DNA from: Ruditapes philippinarum
Taxonomy: Eukaryota
DNA length: 64,000 bases
Direction: 5' to 3'
Assembly (NCBI RefSeq): GCF_026571515.1
Contig: NW_026863180.1
Coordinates: forward strand, 1 to 64,000
In this document: positions 273 to 56,361 of the stretch, piece after piece
How positions within the stretch are numbered: the first letter of the stretch is position 1
Layout of the letters: the number at the start of each line of letters is the position of its first letter
The notes under the pieces: generated by a model
What the model saw: the letters and a program-made list of their open reading frames with translations, nothing else
Database searches by the model: none
Told to the model about the DNA's origin: nothing
Program-made: the position numbers and the translations under genes

Positions 273-3200
273 GTGATGATTATCAATGGAATATCAAGAC
301 AAAAACGTGTGGTAGCAAAGTGGGTGATGCAGGGTATACCAAAATTGTTGAGTATCCCCGAAGACTACACTGAAAAAATGTGCAGGATTAAAAGTGGGAT
401 AGGTAACAACAAATTACTTAAGTTAATTTTAGTGATGATTGTTGACACGATTCTTTAAATTCTTTTTTACTACATTGGTAAAGGCGGGATCTTGCTCCAT
501 AAGTTAAGATGGGTTTTTGCTACATTGCTTGAAGTGGATTCTTGCTATATATAAGTCATATTGTTAAAGATCATTAATTAATTTTCAGTTGTGTAATGAA
601 GTCTGTTAGAATGTTAGAATACTATTTTACTGGCAACAGGGTACGTTCATAACATTTGTATAAACTTCTTTAACAAAGGTCTATATAGAAAAATAATCCC
701 TACCTTACATATGTTTCACCGATGAATTTATTCATTTTCTTTATTTAGTCAGAGCAGAGTCTTCTCTTTACAACATACTACAATCTAACAGCTTGCCATT
801 ATGGGTACAGTTCCCAGCTGACCGTGTGCTTACAGTTGGTAACAAGAGCATCAATACAAACGATATTCCTCCCTGGAAAATCACAAAACGTTTTTACGAA
901 GTCTATTTACTTGCCAATACTATCATAGACGGTAGGTGTTTAAGTTATTTTCCGTAGAAACATATATTAATATTATGTTTAGGAATCCCCTATAAATTAA
1001 AAAAGGGATGGAATAGGCATTTCACTTTGAAGTTTAAAGTTGCTTAATCATATAACTACCAAATACAGGCAACATCTTCTATATTGATCCTAAATATGTC
1101 GCTTTTACAGAGTAGTTGCGATATATAGGGATCATTTCCCCGTCGTCTATCTACCCGTCTATCTGTCTGTCCGTCCGTCACAAAACTTTTCAGACTCCTC
1201 ATCAAAAACCACTTGTTCAAATTCATTCAAACTTCACAGGAATGATCAGTACCACGTCTTCACAATGTCAATGAAACTCGCCGTATGAACACATCTGCGG
1301 ATGATTCTTAATTCAAAATTGTATTGTTTCATGTTTAAATGTTGAATTCTGCTTAAGCCGGTGCTAGGGGGCATGGACGGTAGCTTTCACTTTCCAGTAC
1401 CGTCCATGAACAGGCTCAATCAAACCTAGTCTGCAACCTTTTCAATTTTGCCGTGTTGGGCCTTCTTTAGGGATTCTGTATTTTTCTATTTTACAGGATT
1501 GATCTTCAACTTAAGTACTTGTGCATATTGTACAGATTTTCCGGGTGAATTATTGTTTTCCGAGTTATGGCCCTTGAATAAAATTGTGATTTTTGTGTGT
1601 TGACAGCTACACAGAAGCTTGTCTGGACTATTTCGCAGGAACATCTGGTGCAATTACATCCAAACTTAACAGGAATAAATAGTACCAAGTCTGGTTGTGC
1701 TGATGGTTCAATACTTTTATCGTTTATCGGAGTTATGGCCCATTTATTATTTTGGTGTTTTAAGTTTGTCTGATGCAATTTCAATGAAACTTTACAGGAT
1801 TGATTGGTAGGTCAATCACTTGCCCTTACTTCCCAGGTCTTTGCTTGAATGATTTTTGGCGAGTTATGGCCCTAGAATGTAAAGGGTGTTAATAAAGTTT
1901 ATCCGGGATTCTACTCTTATACCAATGTTAAAATTTCAATGAAATTTTACAGGATTGGTTGATAGCCCAAGTTTCTGTGCATGATACACACATTTTGCCT
2001 CTTGAATAAAAGGTGTTGTTTTGTTTTGCCAGCTATGCTGAAGCTTTCTGGACTACTCCTTCTCAGACACTAGTGGTGCACTTTCATTAAAAATGTAAGG
2101 GAATGATCAATATTATGTCTAGTTGTGCATCTCATTGACATATTTCGGTTCATTGATATTTTCGTTAGAGTTATGGCCCTTTCATGATTTTATTTTTTTT
2201 AATTCTTCCGGACTACTCCTCTTATACAATGTACCACTAGTGCAATTTCAATGAAATCTTACTGAATTGATCGGTTTCGATTTATAAGTTGAATAATGAT
2301 TGGCCGAGTTATGGATATCATGAGGCGACACATGTGATTACTGATAGCTTTTGTTTGTTCATATGTACCATAAGGAAGTCCAATGATTCAGTGAGTCGTT
2401 ATATATATGTGTGTATATATGTATATATTTCATGTATTTATATAATGAAACGAAAATATATGTGCATATTTTCACGTTTTATATATACATGTATGTTTGC
2501 AGGTTACCTATGCACAGATGTGACACATGTACCTTTATACCTATCCGAGCTAAGTCTATCGGTTGTAACAGGGCTCAAAGGACAATCTGTCGATAGATGG
2601 AAGGTATTTTTCGACCAAATGGTTTACAAATGCTCGGCTTTTGAATATGATGAGCACTTTGGAAATCCTAGTGCGTATTGAAGTTATTTATGAGTTTCTT
2701 CGGAAATGCTTTTGATCATTTAATTGTACTTTACCTTATTTTTCCAACCTCTAATTGTTAAAAGCTGCCGTCTAAGATAGGATGTGGTTAGAAAACCAGC
2801 CTGGTTGTTAGAAAGTTAATTTATAATAAATGCATTAAAAACATCTCAAACTTAATTTATTATTTTCCAATATATAACGGAGTCGGATTTTTCTTCAATA
2901 GAATCGATTCATTATAAATATTAAAGGAGATAAGCTTATTTGTAGAATGTAATGTTTTGATTAATTTTCTTGTGTGACATAACCTAAAACAAAATCAATT
3001 CACCTCTTGTAAAATGATGTAGGCTTAATACGAAAAGTATTCAAATTCATAGCATGCAAATTTTGATATATTCAGTATTTTCATATCTGATACATATTGG
3101 AAATGAGTTCATGATATATGTTTTTGCAGATATTGCAGAATATGACCAGTCGTCTATACATTCCCTCACAGAGATGACATACTGTGAACCTAAATTGTAT

Positions 3201-3848
3201 TCTGATATAGTAGGCTTAGTCGAAGGCCCGCCTTTCAAAGTTACACCACATCCTTATGTCCCGCTGAGAAGCAATGGGAAGCCAGAAACAAACACTAAAC
3301 TTGCCATTCAAGCAAGGCCTTTACCACCTCTCCCGGAAGATATTCCAAAAAACAAACAGCATAAATCGAACCAATCGGATGCATTAGAATTGTCCGCAAA
3401 AATGAGCAATATGTACATCACACCAGATTATTCTGATAAAAATAAAAGTTTTAACGCAAAGCATCCGTCTTGCCAGAAAACAGAAACTAACCCACAATAC
3501 AACAACGATATTCCGAGAGCATCGATACAACCAAAAATCCCAAATCGTGTACGACATTCGAAGGAATCCTCACAAATAGCGACACCAGATCGAGCTGTCA
3601 GACCTTTCGAGTACAGGCACACTAAGGATGCAGTTATGAATGTTGAAAGTCTTTCTATGAATGAAGTGACTGAATACCTAAAAGTTCTGAACCTCGGTCA
3701 ATATGCTGAGACGTTTAAAAACAATATGATTGATGGTATGATGCTGATAGGTCTCTCGGAGAAGATGTTACGAAAAGACTTTGGCATGAATAGAGTAGAG
3801 GTCTTTAGACTGTTAAAGTTTGCAAAAGAAGGATATATACCCACTTAA
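273..3848 (+). CDS. CABIT-like domain + Pro/Tyr-rich linker + C-terminal SAM adaptor protein (GAREM/THEMIS-like architecture), paralog A, 5'-incomplete
   Basis: GT-AG exons 273-402, 749-931, 2503-2670 and 3130-3848 join in frame (phases 0/1/1/1). CABIT-like motifs LSIPEDY, LPLWVQF, YLLAN, VPLY. SAM-like C-terminus (LSMNEVTEYLKVLNLGQYAETFKNNMIDGMMLIGLSEKMLRKDFGM). Exon sizes 130/183/168 equal those of the - strand paralog. The first coding exon lies upstream of the window. Confidence 0.8.
1135..2320 (+). mobile_element. Degenerate Helentron/HINE-like element with ~150-170-bp internal tandem units (intronic)
   Basis: (GTCY)n microsatellite at ~1140-1180, then recurring units containing TTCAATGAAA and GAGTTATGGCCC (1562, 1731, 1861, 2168, ~2306). 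Absent from the matching intron of the paralog. Confidence 0.55.
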
Positions 3849-4559: not shown

Positions 4560-6290
4560 CGAAGGGTAAAGGCGCCTTTCAATTTCAAATTGAGCTGAAA
4601 GACTTGATGGCAGAAAGACATCGCTGAAATAACGCAGCGATTTCGAATGCTTAGAATATCGCAAAACACAGCATCTTATACGGAGGTACGACAACCTCTG
4701 TGCAAGAGCTTTCAATATCGTGTAGTATGTATGGGTAAGCATAAAGATTGATTGTGGGCCAACTTTGAATGAAACACTGGATGTGGAATAAGACGTGAGG
4801 AGGGCACTAATATAAAATAATATAATATATATAATAAAGTTGTGCAAGTGTTTGTGGATACACCTCTCCATTAGTTTTTTATACAACGTAAAGGAGAAAT
4901 GGGTTGGTAGTTCGAAGGCTTAGATGGATCATTCTTTTTAAATATAGGAATGACATTGGCTATTTTCCAGGAGGAAGGAAAGGTACATTTTGAAAGTAAC
5001 ATGCTGAAAAAAGCCAGCCAAAGGTTTAGACAGAATAGAGGATCCTTCTTTCAGTAATGGTGGTCATCAAGCTTTCGATGGGTCTATTAACAATATACAT
5101 GTAGTATCTTTTACATTTGTAATTTGGGGAAGAGGTCAGTTTATATGCAAGTTCAGATTTGGGAGTTGTGTGTTTTGAACGTCAATATATGATTGTGTTC
5201 AACAAAAATTATTTAGTAGTTCTATGTTTTCTTTGTCAGTGTTTGCAGAAATTCCGTTATCAAGGAGGACTCGGATTGCTGGTTTTGATCGTTTTTGTGT
5301 GATAGATTTTGTCAGTTTAAACCAATTTTTCGTTGAGGTCTTTGATGAGTATATTTGTTCAGTTAATCTATTTTGATATTCATTTTTACATTTTCGTATT
5401 TGTTTTGATACCTCATTTCTGATTGCTCTATATTGTTGTCAAGATATCTCTGCATTCATCAGTTTTGATATATTGTAGGGCCTTTTTGCATTATTAGTTT
5501 GCGTTATTAGTTTGTTGGTCATACATGGAATATCATGAGGTCTTATTGTTACTATTTTTGTTAGGAAAATTGTTGTCTGTGGCGTTATACATGATAATAG
5601 TTTTACGTTTGACTGTTTCATCTATATCAAAGTCAGTGTTTATTATGGATTGCCAGTCGTCTGCTGAGTTAAAACAAACAAATTATTTATCATTTAGTGA
5701 TTAACCTGTTCGTGCTCTGTCTTGTGCCCCGTCCTGTTTTTGTTTTGGGTCCGCCTGGGCTCCCTGCCGCTGGTTCTTGTTGATAGGTCATATGGGGGTT
5801 GCGTTCATTGAACGCCGCCTTTCCTTGTTGATCTTAATTATCATATTTCAATTACATTTCTGTAGCCACAGCAATCACCCCTATCAAAAAGCCATATTTT
5901 GCGTTTGTATGTGGTACCTTGTTGTTTCGATAATTTCATTACTGATACAACAGGTTAAGATATAATTTGAGTTCTTTACAATCATTACATCGAGTAGTGA
6001 GTTAGAGCCTTGTGTAAAGTGGGTTGGTGTAGTAATAATCTGTTCTGCATTGTCAGACGCTTTGAGATAAGACGTACAGTTTGTTTGAATTAGAGTTTAG
6101 ATTTATGTTAAAATCGCCAGCACGCAGGATATTGTCAGATCTCTCGGAAAATGTTCATCAATACACTGTTCAAGAAATAGCCAATGCTGATTGTAAGAGT
6201 CTGGGAGTCTATAAATACCGCCTAGAAGAAGTATACGACTTTTTATATCAAGCTCCACTCATACACATTCGATACCACGTATAAATTCCT
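4560..6290 (-). mobile_element. Decayed CR1/L2-clade LINE ORF2 remnant (APE endonuclease to N-terminal RT region)
   Basis: Minus-strand translation gives LGGIYRLP (~6215), ILRAGDFNIN (~6110), PSSWKIANVIPIFKKNDPSKPSNYQPIS (~4940) and LMERCIHKHL (~4860). Many stops and frameshifts. Confidence 0.75.
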
Positions 6291-6495
6291 TCTATCTATA
6301 TAAAAAACTGGAAAAAAAATCAGATATATTGTATTATGCAGAAAACGTTCTTTTTCCTCCATGTATAGTATTCACTAAAACTATTAACAGATAATGTGGA
6401 AACAAATATTTGTGTTATATATGTATATATTTTACAAAAATATAAGCCCAGGTACACTGTAAGCAAACTTACTCATTTAGTGTGTATATACATAT

Positions 6496-7909
6496 TGTTG
6501 CGCGCCGGTGATGTCAATCTATGGGTAGCGTATAAGAAGCACCGACCTCGCAACACTGTGTTTCTATTGTTTTGCACAATGTCGTAAAGTTGGAGTCTCT
6601 AAACCAGTGTAACTAAGCGCCACAGGTTATACAAGCTGATCTTTTCTGATGAGGTGATATTGAAGAGTTTGGTCTCCACAGGGAATTATGGGAAAGTCAT
6701 ATATAAGTAAAGGGGGTTATTTATAATCCAAAGGAAAAAGACTCATATATGGCAGTACTTTCTCTTTATTCAATGTTATAAGGGGAAATATATCAATTGT
6801 AATGAATGCAAAATACAAGTCAAGAAATGTAAATATAAAAATTAATACCTCTTGTATACTATATTGCACGAAAGAAAATCCCGAAAAAGCTACGCAAAAA
6901 TTCACTAAGATCTGTCGACTAAATGGGAGTAGGGATATTATATCTCAAATGATAATTCAACAAAAATCTTGTATCTTGCTAGACTTATGAAAATCAAGAA
7001 TATAACAGATAGTTTACTTAAAAATGCCTCAAGGATATATTTAATTTATTTATACTGTAATATGAAAGAATGCTATTCACTCAAAAATTGTATTATTATG
7101 TTAACCTTACAATTATCAAAGATTGTTCAAATTGTTGCTTGAGAATGGAATCTGACAAAGATTTACCCTAGATGTTTCTAAGTTGTGGAGACCCCGAATG
7201 ACGGGAACAATCAGTTTATATACCCAAGGACTGTGCACAAAAATAGTTTGTGTGTGCACAAAAAATAAGTGCTTGTACACAAAATGTGCACAGCACGCAA
7301 AATATTAAGTGTACAATACATGAACGCCATTGGATGACAAGTGCACGAAAAAACTTTATGCACTGGCAACCAGAAATCGATGTCAAATTCCATATTTATA
7401 CCATAAATATAACCAAAAAGTAATAAAACTTAATCTATATGACAAAAATATATCAAAGACAAATGGAATCTTACATTATAACTCCTCTTCAGACTCATAT
7501 TGCCAGAAAATCGTCAAAAACACTGATATTTTAACGTTCTACAGTTGCTGGGGAGAAAGTTACCCTAACACCGCTTAACAAAACCCGGAAGTAAATTAAA
7601 TTAGCGAAAATAACATTAATTACCGGATATATAAGCCTGATAGACAATCATTTCCATTTTGAAATAATTTAAACCTGATAGCACAAATGATATCTTTAAT
7701 CATTAGATAACAATCTGTTTATAAGGCCCAAAAAGCCTAAAAAAACAGTAAGTGTACAACATTCGGATACAGCAGTTTTGTCTTACAAAATAGCGAAGTG
7801 TGAACAATAGACGGAATAAAGATGAATCTTTCAAGTACATGTTTGCCAATTTAACGTAACATATAATCAACAATAACATCAGACTAAGCATTAATGCTGG
7901 GGCATCTCA
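6496..7909 (-). repeat. 3' LTR (1414 bp)
   Basis: Near-identical to 16372-17787; bounded by TGTTG...TCTCA on the + strand; adjacent to the PPT. Confidence 0.95.
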
Positions 7910-7925
7910 TCACCCCCTTCTTTCT
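7910..7925 (-). promoter_or_regulatory. Polypurine tract (PPT)
   Basis: The minus strand reads AGAAAGAAGGGGGTGA immediately before the 3' LTR. Confidence 0.85.
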
Positions 7926-8750
7926 ATGTCAAAGCTCCGACTGACAATAAATAATAAATATGACTAGACTTAACAGTTAAATAACAAGATATGCACAAGT
8001 AATTTACTATACTATGAATAATAAATAACTGCTATCACACATTCAATATTTTGCCTTACACATTACTTTAAATATTTGACTGTTCATCTTTAACTTAAAA
8101 CTTGACTGTTCACCTTTAAGAAAAGTGACTTACATCTTAGCAGTTCATCTTTAAAGCAAAAAGTTAAAAAATGTAAAATCATTGATGATCAAAGGAAAAT
8201 CAAGTTAATAACAGCTTAACAATTGAACAATTTTGTCATGTAACAATTCGAACTTACAACATGTGAATTAAACATTTAAAGTTAAAAAATGCTAGCATTA
8301 AACAATGCATTTAACCTTTACAAACAATTCTCGTCAAATCCTACAAAGTACATCTTGTAGCACCATGAGTAATGAAAATACTCCTAAATTGCAAAAATTC
8401 TTTCGAGTCTATTGCACATTATGCAGAAACTTAATGCTCAATTGCATTAATTTAATCTTTAAAACTAATGTTCATCTTTAATTAAACACTTAGTAAAGCA
8501 CTAATACATAACTCTTACTCAAAAAGAGTTTAAGACAAAGTTTCTTTGAGTTAAAATTAAAAAAAATAGTAAATACAATCATGTATACTCTTTAAGAAAA
8601 ATTATTCCTATTTTTAATACACACAATAATTCAATAGTAATCTATCTTAACCTATTAAATAAAGCATCATTTCTTTTAAAGAACCCTGTTTAGCACATTT
8701 TACTTAAATCTGTAATACTTTTAACTGTCATTTCTCCAACTTCTATTTTT

Positions 8751-10160
8751 TTACACTTTATTCACGATAGATTTTAATGTTCTATTTTCCTTTCCCTCTT
8801 TCTTCGAATAATCCTCTCTCCTACTCGTCTCCTCACTCTTTCTTGATTTCTCCTTCCTGTTTTCATCTGCACGCTTCACTGATAACTCATTTTGACCCTC
8901 TTCCCTACGCCTCTCATGCTCTCGTCTCTGCTCTTCGCCCATCCTTTCCAGTGTTCGATTCATTTTTGACATAACTTCCATCAACTGACCTAAAGTTTTG
9001 TCAACACCTCTCACAGCTCTGCTGTTTTTCTCAAATGCGTCAGTTAATTGCTTCACCCCACTTTCAATTACACTTTCAATGACTTTTGCTAGTTTAAAGT
9101 CCTGCTTTTCTTCATTGGTTACTGTATCATCAATTCTAGGTCGTTTTGTTGCCGGTTCGACGTTTGACGTCAGCTCAACTTGGGTGGCAACCTCTACTCT
9201 TGATGTTCCAACAAGAGGATCTTCAACATTACCAGAATCACTATTTAAATTACCATTTTCAGTTTGAGCACCTGCTTCAATTTCAAGCCAGTTATGATTA
9301 AACCCAAATTCGTATTCTGACTCAGTGTTGTCGTTGATCCCGAGTAGACCTGGCAGTATGTCTTCAGTAGTAGACTGATTTATTTCAGGTGTGTTCAGTA
9401 AGGAACCCACATGTTGACTTCTATTTTTAGTTGAAGAGACATTATCTGTTGAAGGCACATTGTATAAAACATTTTGTTGATTTCCCTTAGTTTTATTGTC
9501 CTTTACAATTGGTGTAGGAATATACACTTGTGTTGATGTTGTACTTGGGCTATACATTGCCCCTGTTGTCATATTGATGGTAGAATTATCCATAGTATTT
9601 TTCTGATGGGAATTATTAACTGGTGTTTGTTGACACTGAAGAAATTTTTCAAGCATTTCTGGAGTTAACTGAATATTGATGAGACCACTTCCAGATTGTT
9701 GGTTAACAGGTGCTTGGCTAGTTGTAGGAGGTGACATTAAAGGTGCTTGGCTGACGATTGATGGTGACCTTAAAGGAACTTGGTCATCTTCCCATCCTAA
9801 AGAGCTACCTGTGTTTTCTTTGCTGTTGTGTAGAGAAGCCTCTAGGGATGATAATTCTCTTAGATCCTTACCTAGTTCAACTAGTGCTGGGCGTGGATTT
9901 TCCACAAGATACCTCCTGTCATCCGTGCGATGCTCAGCAGCTGCCAAACGATGCCTGCTATACTTAGATACGTGGTTGATTAAGGCAGACTTAGTAGAGC
10001 ACCTCAATAAACACAAAGTACAGTAAAATGGTGCTTTGTCAAGTGCGAAATGGTGCTTGTAGATGTGAGCAGTCACTCTGTAGCGAGCTTCTACGTATTT
10101 CTTTCCAGCCGCTTCACAATGAACACATGAATACATCTTGCCTCGTCGTGGTTCAGCCAT
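8751..10160 (-). CDS. Retrotransposon ORF3: two N-terminal C2H2-like zinc fingers, low-complexity linker, C-terminal coiled-coil/charged tail (469 aa)
   Basis: CVHC-x16-H-x3-HH and CTLC-x12-H-x6-H motifs. No signal peptide or transmembrane segment is visible. It lies between pol and the 3' LTR, in the sense orientation. A polypyrimidine tract and AG (TCTGTTTTTGTATCTTCTCAG) lie 6 nt before the ATG. Confidence 0.85.
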   Translation of the reverse strand: MAEPRRGKMYSCVHCEAAGKKYVEARYRVTAHIYKHHFALDKAPFYCTLCLLRCSTKSALINHVSKYSRHRLAAAEHRTDDRRYLVENPRPALVELGKDLRELSSLEASLHNSKENTGSSLGWEDDQVPLRSPSIVSQAPLMSPPTTSQAPVNQQSGSGLINIQLTPEMLEKFLQCQQTPVNNSHQKNTMDNSTINMTTGAMYSPSTTSTQVYIPTPIVKDNKTKGNQQNVLYNVPSTDNVSSTKNRSQHVGSLLNTPEINQSTTEDILPGLLGINDNTESEYEFGFNHNWLEIEAGAQTENGNLNSDSGNVEDPLVGTSRVEVATQVELTSNVEPATKRPRIDDTVTNEEKQDFKLAKVIESVIESGVKQLTDAFEKNSRAVRGVDKTLGQLMEVMSKMNRTLERMGEEQRREHERRREEGQNELSVKRADENRKEKSRKSEETSRREDYSKKEGKENRTLKSIVNKV

Positions 10161-10552
10161 TGCGTTCTGAGAAGATACAAAAACAGATTTTTAATAAACT
10201 GATAAAAATCATGATGACATTATTCTTCATATTTTGCGAAATAGATTAAGCTTCTATCATGAGAGAAGGGTGGTGGGGTGGGAATCGACAGATCTTAACA
10301 CCGCGCTAGATAATTCATTACCTCTGGACAGCGATGTGACGTTGATACTTGACGGCGAAAATATGTTGACGCTCGACGGCAAAATGACGTTGCAAATATT
10401 CGAAAAAAATAGACAGAAGAGCGAAACAATATGGCTGATACAGCTGATGCTCATTTTATTATTAATATATATTTTTACACAAAAAAACAAAAATATGTAA
10501 CACAACAAAAAGCTTATGTTGTTATGTTGATAAAATGTTGACAACTACTGCT

Positions 10553-13500
10553 TTAGATAAGTAGCTTCTTCTTTAACTTCTTAATCCATCTAGGAACATT
10601 GCATCCAACATATGGCTTTAGTTTATTGTGATGCACCACACGCTCTGATCCCTGGTCCTTTATCTGAATAACAAAGGTTAAAGGAGACAACTTCTTCAGC
10701 ACCAAGCAAGGACCTTCATAGGCTGGTTGCAACTTCGGAGCCTCACCAATTTTTCTGCATTCCGCTAAACACCACACTACATCGCCCTTCTCGTAAACAT
10801 TCATTATCATTCGTCTGTCATATATGTCTTGGCTTCGCGCAGCTGCTTTTCTTAAGTGATTCCTGGCCACATCATGTGCATGGTTAATGTTTGCTCTGAT
10901 CTTCTCTACATAGTCCCCATATTTTGATACCTGAACGTCGGACTCCTTGGTGGTACAGCCAAAAACAAGCTCTGCTGGGAGTCGTACTTCTCTTCCCATT
11001 GTCATCATATTTGGCGTCAGTTTTGTTGCTTCATTTGGGGTTGCACGGTACGCTCCTGCCAGACATCCCAGGTTCAAATCCCAATCTTCTTGTGCACCCT
11101 TAAGGTATGCTCGGATCATGCGTGCCAACGTGTGGTTAAATTTTTCTATTTGTCCATTGCATCTTGGGTTTCGAACACTTGTCCTCACCTTCTTAATGCC
11201 TAGCAACTTGCACATCTCTTGAAAGACTCTGCTTTCGTATGTTCTGCCCTGGTCGCTAAGAATAGATATAGGACATCCCCATCTAGAGACAAACTCATTT
11301 ACAATTAAATAAGCACAGGTTTCGGCTGTCTGATCAGGGGCAGGAATAACTTCAACATATTTAGAAAAAAGATCAGTGAGTACTAGGATATATCGGTTGC
11401 CACGTGGAGTAATGGGGAAGGGACCTAAATAATCGGTTGCTAAGATATCCCATGGGGCACCTGTTCTTACACTTCCCATTGGGGCTTTTGGGGGCTTTGG
11501 GGGTTTCTTATCTCTGGCGCAAATATCACATTGTCTGATAAATAGCTTAATATCTTCTCTTAAATTAAACCAGTAGAACCTTTGTAATATAACAGCTTTG
11601 GTTTTCTTTGTACCCATATGCCCTGCTAAAGGTCCCGCATGCAATTGTTGCAGTATACCTTTCTTCTCACATTGGGGTATTATTATTTGAGCATAACTTC
11701 CTGACCCGTCTTTTTTAGTGAACTCTTTTGTTAGCACCCCATCAACCACTTTCAGCTGATCCCATAATAACAGATAATGTCGTGAGGTTGAGCTCATAGT
11801 TTCTGTTTCCTCCTTAGCTGGTTTTCTGCCAGATATTTTAGCCTCTAAAACTGGTTTTATATCATTATCTTCAAGTTGTTTAGCTTGTATTTGATCAATT
11901 GTATTTCCTATCCCATATGCCCTCCAATTTGTGGTATCATCACTTGTACTTGCTGCAGGTATTTCTATATTAACCTCTCTTATCTGCCCTTGTCTTCCCT
12001 GTTCTTCAAAACTTTCAGATTTACCTGTATTTTCATTTTCACTTTGTTGATCAGGTGTTATTTGCTGTGATAATTGGTTTGCTTTCCATTCTAAAACCAT
12101 AATTTCTGCACGACGTCTACATTTATTACATGGCCCACATTTAAGAGGTTCGCTCATGTCTACTATGTTACAGTCACAGTCTCGCGGGTTGTCACATCTA
12201 GATAAGGCGTCACAGTGAGGTTGTAATTTACCAGGACGATACTGAATGGAAAAATTAAAGGCTGCAAGTATTTCAATCCACCTGGCTATTTTACCATTGG
12301 GCTCTTTGAGACTGAAAAGCCAAACCAAAGCTTGATGGTCACTTCTTACAGTAAACTTCCGGCCAAGTAGGTACTGTCTAAAGTATTGGACAAAATAGAC
12401 TATTGCAAGGAGCTCACGCTCTGTCACACAGTAATTACGTTCTGCTTTGTTAAGGGATCGGCTCGCATATGCTATAACTCTCTCACGGTTGTCTTGAAGT
12501 TGTGATAAAACACTTCCTATCCCAGTACCTGACGCGTCTACATCTAGGAAAAATTCCCCACCCTCATTAAGGGGATAACCCATTACTTCTGTATCGGTCA
12601 GTTTAACTTTCAAGTCTTGAAACGCTTTCTCACATTCAATGGTCCAAACGAAGCTTACATCCTTCTTGGTGAGATCTATCAGAGGCCTTGCTAATTTTGC
12701 GAAATCCTTTATAAAGCGTCTGTAATAAGATCCCGTGGCAACAAATTGTTTAGCTTCTTTAGAGGACATTGGTCTTGGCCACTCAGCTATCTTTGAAATA
12801 TTGGTAGGATCTGGTCTAACCCCATCCTTAGACACTATATGCCCAAGAAACACTACCTCTGTTTGGAGCATATGGCACTTATCAGGCTTTAACTTGAGAC
12901 CGGCATGTTTTATTCGGCTAAGTACCTCATCTACTCTTTGAATATGTTCTTCTAAATTTGCACCAAAGACTACTATATCATCAATATAAACTAAGCATGT
13001 CTGCCACTGCAAACCCTGTAGTGCTAATTCCATCATTCTTTGGAAGGTGCTGCTGCTGTTGCTAAGACCGAAGGGCATTCTAAGCATCTCAAATTGACCA
13101 TACTTACAAGTGAATGCACTTTTTGGCATGTCTTCTTTTTTTAGAGGAATTTGGAAGTATCCACTTGTCAAATCAAAAGAGCTAAACATACTCATTCCTG
13201 CAACTGAATCAAGGCAATCCTGGACCCTCGGAAGTGGGAAACCATCTGGCTTCACTAGTGCATTGATCTTCCTATAGTCAACACATGGTCTTATGGCCCC
13301 AGATTTCTTCCTAACGAAAACAATAGGACTGGCCCATGGCGACGTACTTTTTTGGATAACGCCCTTCTTTAACAGATCATCAATGGCTGCTTTTTCCTCA
13401 GCTGCATATGCAAGTGGGACTCGTCTTGGTCTTTGCTTAATAGGAGCTGCATCTCCAGTGTCAATTGAGTGTTCTGCAAGATCTGTCAAGCCGATGTCCC

Positions 13501-14533
13501 ATTCATCTTTTGAGAAGGTTTCACTGTATTTGTTTAGAAGTCCTGCTACAGCATTTTTCTCTGATTCACTTTTATTAGCTGTGGATTTCTCAAATAAGTT
13601 TTTCAAATGATCCGGTACTTCATAAGTACTAAAGTTCAATACATCAGAACTACTTTTACTAACTTTCTTTATGATGTTTAACCGTCTAACCATATGGAAA
13701 TTTTCACATTCTCCTTCATCCTCCTTCTCAGCCAAGACACTTACTATACCCTCTATTTGCTGTGCTTCTCCAATGTGTGCATTCTGATACAGTGTCACAT
13801 TTGCTGGCATAGGATTTAATACCCTAACTTTACATGTGGAACTTCTCTTAATATTTACTAATGATGAAGCCATCACTAACTGATATTTTTGCATAAAAGT
13901 TTCACTTGGTTCAACTATATACTCTGGATGAAGATCATAATCATGAGGCTCCTCTCTTTCTACAAATACATCTACCAACATCTCAGATCTCCCTGGTACA
14001 CAAACATCATCCGCAACTGTAACTCTTCTTGATCTTTTCCCTTTTCCTACCTGGAAACAAGGAATATCTACACCATTCAATTCTATAACTCCTTTGCTCA
14101 ACAGCAAATCAGCTGGCCCATGTACATCTCCCTTCAATATATCATACCCTATCAAGGCATCATCTTCGATATCAGCAACTACCATTTCTTTTGTCATTTC
14201 ATATGACCCCATGGTAATGCTGAATTCACCTTGACCTAACTCCCTTATAGGTGCACCATTAGCGCCACAAAGATTGCTGCATTCTGTTAACTTAGGTCTC
14301 TTACTCGAATCTAAGTTACTATAAACCCTGTCCGACAGTATAGACTTAGATGCTCCTGTATCAGCAGTGAATATTACGTCTACTCCTTGTACGCTTCCCT
14401 TAACATAAACCCCATCACTGAGCCCCTTACTTTCTTTTGGCTCTATCTTTTCACTCTGCTGATTTTTTCTGTGGCCCTTACTCTCTAGTTGGACCCCCTC
14501 CTGGCCACTGGGGCAGGTCCCTGGAAGTTTAAA
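10553..14533 (-). CDS. pol: Gypsy Pol polyprotein (aspartic protease, RT, RNase H, integrase), expressed by -1 frameshift from gag
   Basis: The frame is open from 14533, upstream of the track's Met at 14212, and includes the protease motif FTADTGAS. RT: LPR..., YIDD. RNase H: DAS...ELLAI...SDH. Integrase: HHCC (H..GH...CDIC), D-D-E core and GPY/F-like YEGP. Confidence 0.95.
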   Translation of the reverse strand, partial: FKLPGTCPSGQEGVQLESKGHRKNQQSEKIEPKESKGLSDGVYVKGSVQGVDVIFTADTGASKSILSDRVYSNLDSSKRPKLTECSNLCGANGAPIRELGQGEFSITMGSYEMTKEMVVADIEDDALIGYDILKGDVHGPADLLLSKGVIELNGVDIPCFQVGKGKRSRRVTVADDVCVPGRSEMLVDVFVEREEPHDYDLHPEYIVEPSETFMQKYQLVMASSLVNIKRSSTCKVRVLNPMPANVTLYQNAHIGEAQQIEGIVSVLAEKEDEGECENFHMVRRLNIIKKVSKSSSDVLNFSTYEVPDHLKNLFEKSTANKSESEKNAVAGLLNKYSETFSKDEWDIGLTDLAEHSIDTGDAAPIKQRPRRVPLAYAAEEKAAIDDLLKKGVIQKSTSPWASPIVFVRKKSGAIRPCVDYRKINALVKPDGFPLPRVQDCLDSVAGMSMFSSFDLTSGYFQIPLKKEDMPKSAFTCKYGQFEMLRMPFGLSNSSSTFQRMMELALQGLQWQTCLVYIDDIVVFGANLEEHIQRVDEVLSRIKHAGLKLKPDKCHMLQTEVVFLGHIVSKDGVRPDPTNISKIAEWPRPMSSKEAKQFVATGSYYRRFIKDFAKLARPLIDLTKKDVSFVWTIECEKAFQDLKVKLTDTEVMGYPLNEGGEFFLDVDASGTGIGSVLSQLQDNRERVIAYASRSLNKAERNYCVTERELLAIVYFVQYFRQYLLGRKFTVRSDHQALVWLFSLKEPNGKIARWIEILAAFNFSIQYRPGKLQPHCDALSRCDNPRDCDCNIVDMSEPLKCGPCNKCRRRAEIMVLEWKANQLSQQITPDQQSENENTGKSESFEEQGRQGQIREVNIEIPAASTSDDTTNWRAYGIGNTIDQIQAKQLEDNDIKPVLEAKISGRKPAKEETETMSSTSRHYLLLWDQLKVVDGVLTKEFTKKDGSGSYAQIIIPQCEKKGILQQLHAGPLAGHMGTKKTKAVILQRFYWFNLREDIKLFIRQCDICARDKKPPKPPKAPMGSVRTGAPWDILATDYLGPFPITPRGNRYILVLTDLFSKYVEVIPAPDQTAETCAYLIVNEFVSRWGCPISILSDQGRTYESRVFQEMCKLLGIKKVRTSVRNPRCNGQIEKFNHTLARMIRAYLKGAQEDWDLNLGCLAGAYRATPNEATKLTPNMMTMGREVRLPAELVFGCTTKESDVQVSKYGDYVEKIRANINHAHDVARNHLRKAAARSQDIYDRRMIMNVYEKGDVVWCLAECRKIGEAPKLQPAYEGPCLVLKKLSPLTFVIQIKDQGSERVVHHNKLKPYVGCNVPRWIKKLKKKLLI
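14471..14533 (-). promoter_or_regulatory. -1 programmed ribosomal frameshift signal (U UUA AAC slippery site + H-type pseudoknot)
   Basis: Heptamer TTTAAAC at 14533-14527 is in the gag frame, and the pol frame has a TAA immediately before it. After a 6-nt spacer, stem 1 GGACCU/GGGUCC forms; loop GUGGCC (14508-14503) pairs with downstream GGCCAC (14476-14471). Confidence 0.85.
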
Positions 14534-15975
14534 TTACTGTTCACCCTTGTTTCCCTATCATTCTTTCTGTCCCTCCAGTTTCTCCTAGATATATCCTTAT
14601 CTGGACAATCTCTAGCATAGTGACCTGTGTTGTGACAAGTAAAGCATTCTACATGTCTCTTGTTTTGATTTGGAAGATTTTTGGCTTGATCCTTCTTACT
14701 TACTTCCTCAAGTTTCTCAAGCCTCTCAAGAATTTTACCTAACACCTCATCTTGTTTTGTTACCCTATTTGAATCATTACTCAATGTTGAGTCTGTACGT
14801 TTATCTGTCTCGGTTGTCTCCTGTGACTGAAAAGCTCTTCTTGTGGCCTTATACCTCTTATCTATTGTACCGCTGTTTCGTGTCTGTATGAAATTAACTA
14901 CATGGTAGACTGCCTCATCAATTGTTTCAGGTTCTTTATGGAATTCTATTTCAAATCTTATTTCATCATCCCTTAAACCATCTAAAAACTTCCTGACCAA
15001 ATCTTCTTCTCTTGTTTGTCTATCACGAAAGCCGTGTGCTTTGTCATATAACATCTTTAAGTCTGCAGCATAATCTTCTGCTGTTTCCCCAGGCTTTTGA
15101 TTGCGACGACTAAATTTTGCAGCATATGCGCGGCTTGTCTCAACAACGCGAAATCGATAATGCATTTCCTTAACTACTTCGCGATAATTCTTTAAGACTG
15201 CTTTTGGCAATTGTCCAAAAAGAAACTGTGCGGCTTGACCCTCAATGCGAGGCAGGAGTTGATCTAGCCTGTCCTCATCATTCCAGTGGTACCTATCGGC
15301 AATGGTCTCAAACCTAGCAATCCAAACCTGCCAGTCTTCTCTACCAGTGAATATCGGAATTTTGATGTTATCAGATCCCTTGTATCGGGTACCATAACCA
15401 CCACTATTATTCACTCGGTGATATCTATGATCAAACTGATTATCATTTTCCCTGTAGTTTATGCGGTTGTTTATTCTATCATCATAAGTGTCATTTGTAT
15501 ATGCATTTTCATTTAACTGCGCCACATCTGAATAACGGTTGTACCCTACCCTTGGTGTCATGTCATCATCTTGATAAGACTGAAAATTTCTATTTATGTA
15601 TTGAGCATGTTCACCAAAATTATTGAAGTTCTGGTTTTCAGAAGGCCTATTTGATGAAAAATGATTTGCCTGATTATAACCTTGTGGAATTGTCTGTTTT
15701 AAGACTCTAAGTTCTTGGACTACTTCTTTCAAAATGCCGGATATATCGCTTAAGTCTCTTGAGCAGACCCTATTGTCATTACTTTGATCATTAGATGTGT
15801 TGACTGCTCTATTTACTTGCTGTTGTTGTATATAATCTTGACTGACATCAACATCAGATGGTATATTGCTTGCAGGCAAGCTTTGAATACTGCTGGTCCT
15901 AGATATTGACCCCTGACTCTCAGAGCGCCTAAAGAATACTTCAGCATCACTGCCGGCAGGTGTATGACAATCCAT
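14485..15975 (-). CDS. gag: Gypsy Gag (496 aa) with CCHC zinc knuckle
   Basis: Capsid-like region (FTGREDWQVWIARFE...QKPGETAEDYAADLKML...FLDGL) and CFTCHNTGHYARDC. The likely start is the ATG at 15975; the 22 extra codons in the ORF track come mostly from the antisense SINE. Confidence 0.92.
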   Translation of the reverse strand: MDCHTPAGSDAEVFFRRSESQGSISRTSSIQSLPASNIPSDVDVSQDYIQQQQVNRAVNTSNDQSNDNRVCSRDLSDISGILKEVVQELRVLKQTIPQGYNQANHFSSNRPSENQNFNNFGEHAQYINRNFQSYQDDDMTPRVGYNRYSDVAQLNENAYTNDTYDDRINNRINYRENDNQFDHRYHRVNNSGGYGTRYKGSDNIKIPIFTGREDWQVWIARFETIADRYHWNDEDRLDQLLPRIEGQAAQFLFGQLPKAVLKNYREVVKEMHYRFRVVETSRAYAAKFSRRNQKPGETAEDYAADLKMLYDKAHGFRDRQTREEDLVRKFLDGLRDDEIRFEIEFHKEPETIDEAVYHVVNFIQTRNSGTIDKRYKATRRAFQSQETTETDKRTDSTLSNDSNRVTKQDEVLGKILERLEKLEEVSKKDQAKNLPNQNKRHVECFTCHNTGHYARDCPDKDISRRNWRDRKNDRETRVNSNLNFQGPAPVARRGSN

Positions 15976-15985
15976 ATCTCTATCT

Positions 15986-16267
15986 GGGGCGTCCGTGGCC
16001 GAGTGGTTAAGGTCGTTCACGTCAAACCACTTGCCCCTCACCGCTGTGGGTTCGAATCCCGACAGGGACTTTGGATTCTTTCATGTGAGGAAGCTATCCA
16101 GCTAGCTTACGGAACGTCGGTGGTTCTACTCAGGTGCCCTATCGTGTCTGAAAAAATGCACGGAAGGGCACCTGGGGTCTTCCTCCACCAGTAAAGCTGG
16201 AACGTCGCGATATGACCTATACTGTGTCGATGTGACGTAAAACCCAAAACAAAACAAAACAAACAAA
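15986..16267 (+). mobile_element. Full-length tRNA-derived SINE inserted in the Gypsy 5' leader
   Basis: A box TGGCCGAGTGG, B box GGTTCGAATCC, (CAAAA)n tail, 12-bp TSD ATATCTCTATCT (15974-15985, 16268-16279). Older copies lie at ~49940 and ~61455. Confidence 0.92.
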
Positions 16268-16346
16268 ATATCTCTATCTATTTATGTACTTGATAATAGC
16301 TTGAAGCTTGAGTTCGAATCTCTGGATCCTGTACACAGTCAAAAGG

Positions 16347-16364
16347 ATCCCACCGCTGCCACCA
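16347..16364 (-). promoter_or_regulatory. Primer-binding site complementary to the tRNA-Leu 3' end
   Basis: Minus strand TGGTGGCAGCGGTGGGAT, 7 nt inside the 5' LTR. It matches the 3' 18 nt (AUCCCACCGCUGCCACCA) of metazoan tRNA-Leu(AAG/UAG). Confidence 0.88.
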
Positions 16365-16371
16365 AAAATTA

Positions 16372-17787
16372 TGTTGCGCGCCGGTGATGTCAATCTATGG
16401 GTAGCGTATAAGAAGCACCGACCTCGCAACACTGTGTTTCTATTGTTTTGCACAATGTCGTAAAGTTGGAGTCTCTTAACCAGTGTAACTAAGCGCCACA
16501 GGTTACACAAGCTGATCTTTTCTGATGAGGTGATATTGAAGAGTTTGGTCTCCACAGGGAATTATTGGATATCATATATAAGTAAAGGGGGTTATTTATA
16601 ATTCAAAGGAAAAAGACTCATATATGGCAGTACTTTCTCTTTATTCAATGTTATAAGGGAAAATATATCAATTGTAATGAATGCAAAATACAAGTCAAGA
16701 AATGTAAATATAAAAATTAATACCTCTTGTATACTATATTGCACGAAAGAAAATCCCGAAAAAGCTACGCAAAAATTCACTAAGATCTGTCGACTAAATG
16801 GGAATATTATATCTCATATGATAATTCAACAAAAATCTTGTATCTTGCTAGACTTATGAAAATCAAGAATATAACAGATAGTTTACTTAAAAATGCCTCA
16901 AAGATATATTTAATTTATTTATACTGTAATATGAAAGAATGCTATTCACTCAAAAATTGTATTATTATGTTAACCTTATAATTATCAAAGATTGTTCAAA
17001 TTGTTGCTTGAGAATGGAATCTGACAAAGATTTACCTTAGATGTTTCTAAGTTGTGGAGACCCCGAATGACGGGAACAATCAGTTTATATACCCAAGGAC
17101 TGTGCACAAAAATAGTTTGTGTGTGCACAAAAAATAAGTGCTTGTACACAAAATGTGCACAGCACGCAAAATATTACGTGTACAATACATGAACGCCATT
17201 GGATGACAAGTGCACGAAAAAACTTTGTGCACTGGCAACCAGAAATCGATGTCAAATTCCATATTTATGCCATAAATATTACCAAAAAGTAATAAAACTT
17301 AATCTATATGACAAAAATATATCAAAGACAAAGAGGTTCTTACATTATAACTCCTCTTCAGACTCATATTGCCAGAAAATCGTCAAAAACACTGATATTT
17401 TAACGTTCTACAGTTGCTAGGGAGAAAGTTACCCTAACACCGCTTAACAAAACCCGGAAGTAAATTAAATTAGCGAAAATAACATTAATTACCGAATAAA
17501 TAAGCCTAATAGACAATCATTTCCATTTTGAAATAATTTAAACATGTTAGCAGAAGTGATATCTTAAATCATTAGATAACAATCTGTTTATAAGGCCCAA
17601 AAAGCCTAAAAAAGCAATCTTCTCACTAAGTGTACAACATTCGGATACAGCAGTTTTGTCTTACAAAATAGCGAAGTGTGAACAATAGACGGAATAAAGA
17701 TGAATCTTTCAAGTACATGTTTGCCAATTTAACATAACATATAATCAACAATAACATCAGGCTAAACATTAATGCTGGGGCATCTCA
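16372..17787 (-). repeat. 5' LTR (1416 bp)
   Basis: Direct repeat of 6496-7909, followed on the - strand by the PBS. Confidence 0.95.
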
Positions 17788-19279
17788 ATATATATCACAT
17801 ATAAGCAGCCTTCACTGATGTATGCTTGATTTTGAAAATAATAAATCCATATGTATAATTATATATTAAAGCGGTTCCCTCGAATAATAATAACATTACA
17901 TATATTATATGCAAAATAATTAAAATCAGAGCACAGAAGGCGCTGAATTTGTTTGGGTCTCAGAATGTCAGAAAGGTGAAGGTTGTGAGATTATAAACCA
18001 ATTTGTTTTTGTATAGTGCCACAAATGTTGTTTCCAGTGTTATAACTGTTGTAAATTTGCCATAAGGCCAATTGAAACACTGATATTCAATTCAATGTTT
18101 ATTTGGAATTTAAAATTAAAAATAATAAAAAGACAAAAAAACATGAGTTGCCTTAACTGGAATTTGAACTCCAGACCTCTCGCATCCTAAACGAGCGTGT
18201 AAACCCTCGAACACGGGGAGTTAAAAGACAACAGCCTGAAGAAAATCATATTATTCTTGATTTGGGTTTGTAATCCTTATTAATTTCGAGATATTTTGTT
18301 CACGGTAATACTGTTGTTTAACACTAATGTAAATAATCATGGAGCTTAATATCAGCATGTATACTTGTAAAGAATTACACAACATCAGAAATCTTTGACC
18401 AATCGGGAACTATTTTTTCTTCTCCGAGAAGGCTTAAAATTAATGCCTGTTCTCCTGGTTAGTGTAGATAAAGGGGAGTAGCCGCCTCGAGTAGTACGGA
18501 CTACTTGTGGATTTTGCAAATAAGCATAGCAGGGTCTGAAATTTCGCTACCATTATTTGTTTTGTCTGACGACCCAAACAAATCAAAACTATTAAGAAAT
18601 AAAAACACAACATAATTTAAGTATTCAGAATTTATTGTACGTAATTCGTCGCAATTAAAGTGGAAATGGCGTTCCATAGTTTAATGAACTGTCGAAAACA
18701 ACTTTTTATGAATACACTTTTATAAGCCGTTTTCGAATGTTTTATTGAGACAGGGGATAATCAGATGTGTAATTTAGATAAGTCAAAAACTGTTTTTTGT
18801 TAATAATACATGTATTATAATACAGACTTCCATTTTCCTTTGTGATATTTCTAAAATGTTGCATACTTAAATTGTGTCATATAAAATCACATTGTATAGA
18901 AATATCAATAAACAAAATCATATTAATTATAAATGAAAAATACGCTTCTCCACGCTTTTAAAGAATTAAATCACAAATGTTTCTACTAGAAGTCATGAAA
19001 GAGAATTGATAACAATTCTGTACATCATTTTTACGTATATTGAGGTACATGTACTTAGTATTTCCTTTACACCTGATTGCAATGCAGTAAACTTCGGCAT
19101 AAAACTTTGCAAAAAGAAATTACTTTTGTAAATTGTACCCACGTAGTTGTTAAATTATGCATGAGCAAATATTATTTATGTACGTAACATGAGCATAATC
19201 TGCCCATTCGGGTCCTTGGAAATTGCTAGGCACCTTTCAATTTGATTGCAAATTTGTAAAAGTATTTGCTTTACATAAC

Positions 19280-34881: not shown

Positions 34882-35214
34882 AATATACATGTATATCGGT
34901 GTTTGGAAACCTGTTATGTTATTTTTGTGATTGATGATTATGTTCTTCTACCGGAAATTTGTTGTCATTTGCTCATTTAATGGTAACTTTTTACGAAGCA
35001 CATTTGGGATATTTTGGCTGCTACTAAAATGAATGTATATATGTATATTATGTCTGGTCAAAATGCTACAGTTGGATTAAAATTTAAATGCTGTTCTATG
35101 TTCTTCAATATTACTTTGAAAAATCCTGTCAGTATACCAATAAATGAAAAAAGTACAAGTTTGTTGAATCTCTTGAATGAAACAAATTATAAAATACAAA
35201 ATGTAAAATGAATA

Positions 35215-36518: not shown

Positions 36519-36551
<33 letters not shown>

Positions 36552-36673
36552 CGATGACGAAGATGATGGTGATGATGATGATGATGATGATGAGAGGACG
36601 ATGATGATTATTTTCATGATGGTATTGATGACGTTGATGCAAATTGTAGTTATGATGATGATTATGATGATGG

Positions 36674-36719
<46 letters not shown>

Positions 36720-36770
36720 AATGATGATGATGGTGATGATGATGAGATAACGATGATGATGACGATGATG
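35215..36770. repeat. (ATG/CAT)n low-complexity tract with internal inversions; includes the assembly gap 36011-36139
   Basis: GATGATGAT runs with recurring GCGATGTTTATCGGYCGA motifs; inverted CATCAT blocks at ~35560-35660 and ~35930-36190. Confidence 0.9.

Positions 36771-56328: not shown

Positions 56329-56361
<33 letters not shown>

What the first reader, a model, noticed from the sequence alone, without database searches (positions are those of the whole stretch)
8751..10160. Gypsy retrotransposon with an intact zinc-finger ORF3 in the env position
Seen: a 469-aa sense ORF between pol and the 3' LTR, with two C2H2-like fingers, an S/T/N/Q-rich and acidic linker, a basic PATKRPR NLS-like motif and a coiled-coil/charged tail. 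No signal peptide or TM helix is visible, so it is not Env. Inference: an element-encoded nuclear regulator, such as an LTR transactivator, anti-silencing factor or integration-targeting factor, comparable to the accessory genes of complex retroviruses.
Basis: partly seen in the sequence, partly recalled or inferred. Interest (0 to 1): 0.82.

Follow-up and report, generated by a model that had tools for sequence, protein, structure and literature searches.

The report
Gypsy retrotransposon's own zinc-finger regulator gene
A group of jumping genes in clams and mussels carries, where a retrovirus has its envelope gene, a conserved gene for a nuclear zinc-finger protein that probably switches on the element's own promoter, a control scheme otherwise typical of complex retroviruses.

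Summary
Confirmed and extended. The 469-codon ORF3 lies on the minus strand, in sense with gag-pol, in a young Gypsy element (LTRs 97.8% identical). It is not Env and not a one-off capture. Its two-finger domain has 96 relatives at E<=1e-10 among 50%-identity clusters and no Pfam family. Six of six integrase-selected loci with DNA beyond pol carry a related ORF directly after pol. Two sister families carry it on the same contigs as their pol. It looks spliced: an acceptor precedes the ATG in 6 of 7 loci (7th at 9 nt), and RefSeq models from two clams add a leader, here encoded in the 5' LTR. In 4 of 4 LTRs a splice donor lies 228-315 nt upstream of the TATA box, and a family-specific word array sits just before that TATA. 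Best model (0.45): an upstream LTR promoter makes spliced ORF3 mRNA, and the protein binds the array to activate genomic RNA, like foamy-virus Tas. Rivals: Rev/CERV-like RNA export (0.2), anti-silencing or repression (0.2). Binding and activation are inferred, not shown. Ten literature searches found no description; Repbase was not checked.

The parts
16372..17787 (-). 5' LTR (1416 nt), TG...CA; 4-bp target duplication ATAT at 17788-17791 and 6492-6495
17344..17367 (-). Coding part of putative ORF3 exon 1 inside the LTR (8 codons), followed by a GTAAG splice donor at 17343 (LTR +445)
   Evidence: Translates to the first 8 of the 10 extra residues of RefSeq model XP_060561660.1; donor at LTR +393 to +445 in 4 of 4 LTRs
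17102..17232 (-). Array of five GTGCAC palindromes (plus one GTGTAC) just upstream of the TATA box; candidate ORF3 response elements
   Evidence: TGCACA x7 counting both strands in 180 nt, 0 of 1000 shuffles reach it, 1 in the rest of the LTR; function inferred
17065..17091 (-). TATA box (17091) and initiator-like TCATTC (17070): putative start of genomic RNA; a second donor-like site lies at 17035
   Evidence: motif labels recalled, start site not mapped
16347..16364 (-). Primer-binding site after a 7-nt TAAT-led spacer; tRNA-Leu-like (assignment recalled)
   Evidence: same spacer-plus-TGG layout in L001 and L003
15986..16267 (+). SINE-like insertion in the leader, antisense to the element, with a 12-nt duplication that overlaps the gag start codon; specific to this copy as far as seen
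   Evidence: two further copies near 49944 and 61461; SINE label recalled
14485..15975 (-). gag, 496 aa, capsid-like region and CCHC knuckle
14527..14533 (-). In-frame TTTAAAC heptamer, putative -1 frameshift into pol
   Evidence: Pol frame opens exactly here; in-frame in 4 of 4 other loci that hold the junction; no stable downstream fold, z=+0.9
10553..14533 (-). pol frame, 1326 codons: protease motif, RT, RNase H, integrase with p58_C/SH3 end
10167..10186 (-). Pyrimidine tract and CAG splice acceptor 6 nt upstream of the ORF3 ATG
   Evidence: matches the junction of the RefSeq model
8751..10160 (-). ORF3, 469 aa
9807..10160 (-). Two-finger zinc domain (aa 1-118): ligands C12 C15 H32 H37 and C47 C50 H63 H70, plus a conserved beta/helix extension
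   Evidence: Ligands 95-99% conserved in 153 aligned sequences; model pLDDT 92
9126..9800 (-). Disordered S/T/N/Q-rich then acidic linker (aa 121-345) with an LxxLL motif (269-273) and basic KRPR (339-342)
8754..9116 (-). Long helix (aa 349-455) with a heptad pattern, then KEN (457) and terminal KSIV (463) motifs
   Evidence: 14 of 18 a/d positions hydrophobic in 350-415; motif enrichment
7913..7925 (-). Polypurine tract
6496..7909 (-). 3' LTR (1414 nt)

Best explanation
ORF3 is a clade-wide accessory gene that encodes the element's own DNA-binding transcription regulator. Step 1 (shown by homology and gene order): it is a conserved part of a Gypsy lineage. Step 2 (supported by gene models and conserved signals): it is expressed from a spliced mRNA that removes PBS-gag-pol as one ~7.2-kb intron. 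Step 3 (inferred): that mRNA starts at an upstream, TATA-less promoter in U3, because the donor lies 5' of the TATA box. Genomic RNA starts at the TATA promoter and so lacks this donor. Step 4 (inferred): the protein enters the nucleus, oligomerises through its long helix, binds the family-specific word array before the TATA box, and recruits host cofactors through its disordered linker. The result is an early (ORF3) to late (genomic RNA) switch, as with foamy-virus Tas.
For: Family: 365 clusters at E<=1e-3 and 96 at E<=1e-10. Linkage: 6 of 6 loci picked by integrase patterns and extending past pol have a same-sense related ORF right after pol (7 loci found, L006 ends in integrase). 3 of 150 hits begin with integrase fragments. 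Selection: finger-domain identity to the sister families is 68-72%, equal to integrase at 69-71%; third codon positions are 0.21-0.39 identical against 0.39-0.59 for the first two. Splicing: acceptor 1-8 nt before the ATG in 6 of 7, background 4.5-8% of ATGs. RefSeq models of Ruditapes and Mercenaria both carry a similar 10-residue leader, and the Ruditapes one maps to the LTR. Promoter anatomy: GTAAG donor 228-315 nt upstream of a TATATA box in 4 of 4 LTRs. Word arrays before the TATA in 4 of 4, at 0, 0, 1 and 3 of 1000 shuffles for 5-mers; the word differs between families and is shared by the sister pair L003/L007. Protein: best sequence and Foldseek matches are DNA-binding C2H2 proteins (Ikaros E=6.5e-4, Kaiso E=0.38). 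Finger-1 positions 26, 28 and 35 are 90-99% K/R, while finger-2 helix positions vary. LxxLL in 22 of 45 (shuffled mean 5.9), basic cluster in 26 of 45 (12.5). Precedent: Tas is made from a second promoter with basal activity and binds elements upstream of the start sites (PMC8670036, passages).
Against: No binding, localisation or transcription-start data. The RefSeq leaders are gene models whose RNA support I could not see. A donor in that LTR window arises in 10-15% of shuffles per LTR, and L003 and L007 are related, so there are about two independent tests. The window's LTR has a second, better-matching donor downstream of the TATA (17035), which would allow ordinary env-style splicing from one promoter. 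Arrays of host-factor sites are common in LTRs (recalled), and one window repeat matches a metal-response-element core (recalled). The L007 array is not significant for 6-mers (222 of 1000). Structural matches are weak (no Foldseek E<1e-3, best Z 4.2), and finger 2 also overlays RNA-binding fingers. Finger-2 helix positions are often acidic. Co-divergence of finger and integrase holds only for the close trio (Mantel p=0.07 overall, r=0.06 among distant loci). L002 shows finger 1 only, E=1.8e-4. Caution from a precedent: the snakehead retrovirus 3'ORF, proposed as a Tat, was not one (PMC12193657, abstract).
Confidence: 0.45

Rival explanations
1. ORF3 is an RNA-binding, Rev/CERV-like factor. 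It binds unspliced genomic RNA, blocks its splicing or nuclear retention, and promotes export.
For: Cer1 CERV is a nuclear protein from a spliced mRNA, with a putative zinc finger, coiled helices and an NLS, and is needed for genomic RNA export (PMC10309623, abstract and passages). Finger 2 has a long His-His spacing and overlays fingers in spliceosome, TUT1, JAZ and U11 snRNP structures at rmsd 2.1-4.1 over 37-42 residues, Z 2.4-3.3. zf-met and zf-C2H2_jaz are the weak Pfam hits of the window protein. The L002 ORF is RS-rich. A donor at 17035 would lie inside genomic RNA.
Against: If the conserved donor lies upstream of the genomic start, genomic RNA need not escape that splice. In L003, L004 and L007 the only GTAAG in the LTR is upstream of the main TATA. 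All Z-scores are under 5. The model does not explain the word arrays.
Confidence: 0.2
2. ORF3 binds the LTR or chromatin but acts as an anti-silencing factor (VANC-like, recalled) or as a repressor that limits copy number, rather than as a direct activator.
For: Same anatomy evidence as the best model. Conserved short motifs in otherwise unalignable regions suggest host-factor docking and regulated turnover: KEN in 24 of 45 (shuffled 2.7), terminal [KR]S[VIM][VIL] in 20 of 45 (0.5). The top Foldseek rows are the methyl-CpG-binding repressor Kaiso, though not significant. A captured MBD in an arthropod Copia family is a precedent for chromatin readers in retrotransposons (PMC6673714, passages).
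Against: No chromatin-enzyme or reader domain was found. An array abutting the TATA box is the usual layout for activators (recalled). The Kaiso match has E>=0.38.
Confidence: 0.2
3. ORF3 is a particle or pre-integration-complex cofactor for nuclear import or target-site choice.
For: Basic motifs and a long helix. Plant additional ORFs have been proposed for such roles (PMC7264820).
Against: Known targeting domains (chromodomain, MBD) are part of pol (PMC12440569 and PMC6673714, passages; MBD position partly recalled). ORF3 is a separate ORF in 6 of 6 loci. This model does not explain a separate upstream donor or the arrays.
Confidence: 0.08
4. ORF3 is a divergent Env, or a neutral captured host fragment.
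For: It sits in the env position with an env-style acceptor. Two of 75 scanned homologues are fused to host-type domains (P0091, P0113).
Against: 0 of 52 homologues of 380 aa or more have a TM-like segment. No hydrophobic leader. Strong constraint and wide linkage to pol. GC3 0.33, like gag and pol.
Confidence: 0.03

Closest known systems
Foamy-virus Tas (Bel-1) with its two-promoter switch
   Same: Element-encoded nuclear factor, made from a second promoter, acting on response elements upstream of the LTR start (PMC8670036, passages). This is the working analogy.
   Different: The second promoter here would be in U3 upstream of the TATA box, not inside env. The host element is an env-less Gypsy. 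No homology shown; activation untested.
CERV of C. elegans Cer1 (Gypsy)
   Same: Non-Env accessory protein of a Gypsy element, from a spliced mRNA, with zinc-binding, helical and NLS-like parts (PMC10309623).
   Different: CERV is nematode-restricted, shares sequence with GAG and has a C4-type loop and a globular G domain. ORF3 has two C2H2 fingers, lies 3' of pol and occurs in bivalves. No direct sequence comparison was run.
Bdelloid ORF3s (DEDDy, GDSL, CC, TM) and plant additional ORFs (Grande gene23, Retand)
   Same: Non-Env ORF between pol and the 3' LTR, family-wide; GENE23 is nuclear with its own promoter (PMC5408684, PMC7264820).
   Different: The word zinc does not occur in the rotifer paper, and no zinc-finger ORF appears in the two of three parts read of the plant review. 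The plant nuclear ORFs are antisense; this one is sense, with an LTR exon.
Errantivirus and other env-carrying Gypsy elements
   Same: Third ORF in the same position, expressed by splicing.
   Different: No signal peptide, TM anchor or fusion-protein fold. The metazoan env survey has no occurrence of 'zinc' (PMC13524379).
Classical C2H2 transcription factors (Ikaros, Kaiso, ZNF451-type pairs)
   Same: Finger 2 aligns to the classical pattern; weak sequence and fold matches.
   Different: Finger 1 has a 16-residue spacer, finger 2 an Hx6H end, and a conserved extension runs to residue ~118. No solved or viral structure matches the whole domain significantly.

Membership tests
Ty3/Gypsy (Metaviridae) LTR retrotransposon | Paired LTRs with TG..CA ends and a 4-6 bp target duplication | tested here: met
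Ty3/Gypsy (Metaviridae) LTR retrotransposon | gag, then pol in the order PR-RT-RH-IN | tested here: met
   for RT, RH, IN; protease DTG motif read from the sequence
Ty3/Gypsy (Metaviridae) LTR retrotransposon | PBS and PPT | tested here: met
   tRNA identity recalled
Named Gypsy clade (Mag, CsRN1, Gmr1, Osvaldo, MolGy1-16) | RT phylogeny against reference elements | not testable with these tools
   No reference set was available. Gmr1 is excluded by domain order (IN after RH; Gmr1 order in PMC2774666). Troyka is excluded by termini, target duplication and LTR size.
Env glycoprotein / errantivirus | Signal peptide and C-terminal TM anchor | tested here: not met
   Hydropathy maximum 1.02; 0 of 52 homologues
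C2H2 zinc-finger protein | Conserved Cys2-His2 ligands in a beta-beta-alpha fold | tested here: met
   95-99% conservation; model; zinc binding itself not measured
C2H2 zinc-finger protein | Member of a curated Pfam finger family at the gathering cut-off | tested here: not met
   Window protein below cut-off. In 75 scanned hits, C2H2 families above cut-off were seen only in generic finger arrays (P0099, P0120, P0138, P0153).
Tas-like DNA-binding transactivator (works like) | Expression from a second promoter independent of genomic RNA | tested here: inconclusive
   Donor upstream of TATA in 4 of 4 LTRs and RefSeq leader; no start-site data
Tas-like DNA-binding transactivator (works like) | Response elements upstream of the LTR start | tested here: inconclusive
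   Family-specific arrays in 4 of 4; the binder is unknown
Tas-like DNA-binding transactivator (works like) | Binds these sites and activates transcription | not testable with these tools
   Needs EMSA, ChIP and reporter assays
Rev/CERV-like export factor (works like) | RNA-binding fold | tested here: inconclusive
   Low-Z overlays with RNA-binding fingers
Rev/CERV-like export factor (works like) | Required for export of unspliced RNA; nuclear export signal | not tested
   No export-signal scan was run; the function needs cells

The most novel reading that the evidence does not exclude
A large, env-less Gypsy lineage of marine invertebrates is a 'complex' retrotransposon. It encodes its own sequence-specific transcription factor, expresses it from a second promoter and exon inside U3, and uses it to fire the genomic promoter in an early/late switch, arrived at independently of foamy viruses. 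Finger specificity and LTR word arrays would have diverged together, so each family has its own private regulon that could also act on solo LTRs and nearby host genes.
Probability: 0.35. Interest if true: 0.88.

Novelty: new variant of a known kind. Interest (0 to 1): 0.75.

Why it matters
LTR retrotransposons are usually taken to rely on host factors for transcription, and self-encoded transactivators are a hallmark of complex retroviruses (established knowledge, recalled). A widespread Gypsy lineage with its own zinc-finger regulator would blur that line. It also gives a directly testable system: many natural finger-domain and LTR-array pairs that can be cross-tested for specificity. Even if the role is RNA export or anti-silencing, this is an unnamed family of at least about a hundred divergent clusters. 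Its members are currently filed as uncharacterised bivalve genes or as hypothetical proteins in bacterial bins, so naming it fixes annotations.

Tried and rejected
Homodimer prediction for residues 345-425 gave no verdict; it is not used as evidence. A genome-contig scan with finger patterns found nothing among 41 pattern matches. Foldseek against PDB and BFVD gave no E<=1e-3, and VIA best Z was 4.2, so neither a cellular nor a viral donor was identified; this does not show a new fold. The Atlas gave unnamed clusters at 0.95-0.96 and generic C2H2 clusters. Rfam found nothing in 6000-18500. No stable structure follows the slippery site. Stop-codon readthrough for gag-pol was considered and dropped because pol is in the -1 frame. 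A recalled link to zebrafish nanor found no support. S/T-P sites are not enriched in the linker (27 of 45 against 21.2). A YY1-like word sits at LTR +265-267 in 3 of 3 other LTRs but not at that place in the window. Deep co-phylogeny of finger and integrase was not supported. A formal dN/dS was not computed, because DNA of close copies was not available. Rows dropped before counts: P0099, P0120, P0138, P0153 (generic finger arrays) and P0113; these plus P0091 and P0065. Only the best 150 of 365 hits were visible, and the weaker ones may be generic fingers. The acceptor, donor and 180-nt windows were chosen after seeing the data. Motif shuffles do not correct for relatedness. Viral contigs, metagenome contigs, Repbase and GyDB stayed unchecked, and no paper supplements were read; supplements of the mollusc, annelid and env surveys could hold these elements.

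Full report
Observation. The ORF is real: 10160-8751, minus strand, 469 aa, in sense with gag and pol. Shuffles of the region never exceed 174 stop-free codons, against 479 observed. It lies in a young Gypsy element with 1.4-kb LTRs (1376 of 1407 bases identical), an ATAT target duplication, PBS and PPT. Gag and pol are uninterrupted and joined by a putative -1 frameshift at TTTAAAC. A SINE-like insertion sits just before the gag start. ORF3 has no hydrophobic segment. It is 100% identical over 469 aa to RefSeq XP_060561660.1 of Ruditapes philippinarum, which suggests the host; I cannot tell whether that record is this same copy.

A family, not a one-off. The first 120 residues find 365 clusters at E<=1e-3 and 96 at E<=1e-10; the best 150 were listed. 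The eight zinc ligands are 95-99% conserved in 153 aligned sequences. Of 75 longer proteins scanned, finger families above the Pfam cut-off were seen only in four generic finger arrays, which I set aside. Named members come from Ruditapes, Mercenaria and Mytilus, and from a bin labelled Ca. Thiodiazotropha; range beyond bivalves is unknown. The architecture is kept: N-terminal fingers (finger 2 within the first 100 aa in 112 of 114 hits with the motif), a low-complexity linker and a charged tail. None of 52 long homologues has a TM-like segment.

It travels with Gypsy pol. A scan of genome contigs with integrase patterns, independent of ORF3, gave 7 loci from 17 pattern matches, with pol 47-55% identical. 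They are labelled bacterial but look like animal DNA caught in bins (inference). Six extend past pol, and all six have a same-sense ORF right after it that matches the finger profile: E 8e-48, 7e-42, 1.5e-37, 1.3e-8 (L007, broken), 1.1e-7 and 1.8e-4 (L002, finger 1 only). The profile may include close kin of some of these. Separately, all 6 members of the best ORF3 cluster share a contig length with the best pol cluster. For the second pair, 6 of 8 do, with only 15 of 20 pol members listed. This is contig-level evidence, not adjacency. Three of 150 hits start with integrase fragments.

Selection. The finger domain is as conserved as integrase between the window and the two sister families (68-72% against 69-71%). 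In six distant pairs, third codon positions are far less conserved than first and second. Copies within families differ by 0-1% in both ORF3 and pol. Deep co-divergence was not detectable (Mantel p=0.07; r=0.06 without the close pair).

Expression. A pyrimidine tract and YAG lie 1-8 nt before the ORF3 ATG in 6 of 7 loci, and 9 nt before it in the seventh; the background is 4.5-8% of ATGs. The RefSeq model has ten extra residues. Eight of them are encoded in the 5' LTR at 17367-17344, directly before a GTAAG donor, and two by the bases after the acceptor. A Mercenaria model with 73% identity in the finger domain has a similar leader. That donor is 251 nt upstream of the LTR's TATA box. The three other LTRs available each have a single GTAAG at +393 to +409, 228-315 nt upstream of their TATATA box. 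Chance is 0.10-0.15 per LTR and two of the three are sisters, so this is suggestive, not proven. The window also has a donor-like site downstream of the TATA. The inference is two promoters: an upstream one for spliced ORF3 mRNA and the TATA one for genomic RNA.

Candidate target. In all four LTRs the 180 nt before the TATA hold a repeated word: TGCACA x7 in the window, CCAGC x10 and x6 in the sisters L003 and L007, AATCCC x6 in L004. For 5-mers, 0, 0, 1 and 3 of 1000 shuffles reach these counts; for 6-mers L007 is not significant. The words are nearly absent from the rest of each LTR and from the other families' arrays. This is what a family-specific activator would need, but host-factor arrays would look alike.

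Protein. AlphaFold gives a confident two-finger region (pLDDT 92), a disordered linker and one helix of about 107 residues with a heptad pattern. Finger 1 has invariant basic residues; finger-2 helix positions vary. Matches to solved structures are weak: DNA-binding C2H2 proteins lead by sequence and Foldseek, while finger 2 also overlays RNA-binding fingers at Z under 3.5. No significant viral match. LxxLL, a basic cluster, KEN and a terminal [KR]S[VIM][VIL] motif are enriched in 45 long homologues; their reading as cofactor, import and degradation signals is recalled and untested.

Mechanism. Shown: a conserved, constrained, non-Env accessory gene linked to pol. Supported: splicing. Inferred: second promoter, DNA binding, activation. 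I put a Tas-like activator at 0.45, Rev/CERV-like export at 0.2, anti-silencing or repression at 0.2, an integration cofactor at 0.08, and Env or neutral passenger at 0.03.

Literature. Ten searches listed no paper whose title or abstract start describes a zinc-finger ORF3 in animal Gypsy elements. The library lacks most subscription papers and Repbase Reports, where these elements may be annotated. Seen: PMC10309623 abstract and passages; PMC7264820 two of three parts; PMC12193657 abstract; passages only of PMC13524379, PMC6238403, PMC5408684, PMC6673714, PMC10294476, PMC8670036, PMC12440569, PMC8556966 and PMC2774666. The word zinc is absent from the main text of the mollusc, annelid, bivalve, rotifer and env surveys. 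No supplements were read. MMTV upstream promoters and VANC are recalled only.

Verdict. Non-Env third ORFs and nuclear accessory proteins are known in LTR retrotransposons, so this is a new variant of a known kind. The protein family appears unnamed, and the LTR exon, upstream donor and family-specific arrays make a specific, testable case for a self-encoded transcription factor. Interest 0.75.

Noticed in passing
window 15986-16267 (+); copies near 49944-50157 and 61461-61645: SINE-like repeat with a tRNA-like head and a simple-repeat tail. One copy landed in the element's leader with a duplication that overlaps the gag start codon.
   Followed up: partly
window 3054-3848 (+) and 19280-20227 (-): Inverted pair of paralogous exons, 78-87% identical, on either side of the element; the first has a SAM domain. 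The second is co-oriented with the element and ends 1.5 kb upstream of the 5' LTR, so read-through could feed the LTR donor.
   Followed up: partly
window 32967-34855 (+): Integrase-core fragment followed by a 533-codon frame with an OTU-like protease domain (E=5e-12) and an 18-nt tandem repeat; possibly a Ginger-type DNA transposon relic (label recalled).
   Followed up: partly
L003 1-3102 and 10247-13348: Terminal repeat 99.9% identical with period 10246: the contig reads as a tandem or one-LTR circular form of a whole element.
   Followed up: partly
L005 3388-4815: A further 476-codon same-sense ORF with internal repeats and no Pfam match downstream of ORF3, with no clear LTR or TATA between; a fourth ORF or a neighbour.
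   Followed up: partly
P0091 and P0113 (proteins): The finger domain is fused to BTB-BACK-PHR in one and follows WNK-CCTL2 and ALS2CR8 domains in the other; gene-model artefacts or exonisation into host genes.
   Followed up: no
pol aa ~676-700, window ~12187-12115 (-): A Cys-rich motif right after RNase H is conserved in close pol homologues; possible extra metal site in the RH-IN bridge.
   Followed up: no
window 8757-8762 (-): An AATAAA overlaps the last codons of ORF3, and L005 has one 29 nt after its stop; possible early polyadenylation of the spliced mRNA.
   Followed up: no
window 56314-58247 (+): Exon-like frames resembling a peroxisomal acyl-CoA oxidase (recalled resemblance).
   Followed up: no
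window 22058-22541 and 35200-36800: A 29-nt minisatellite and a long (GAT)n-rich region with an assembly gap.
   Followed up: no
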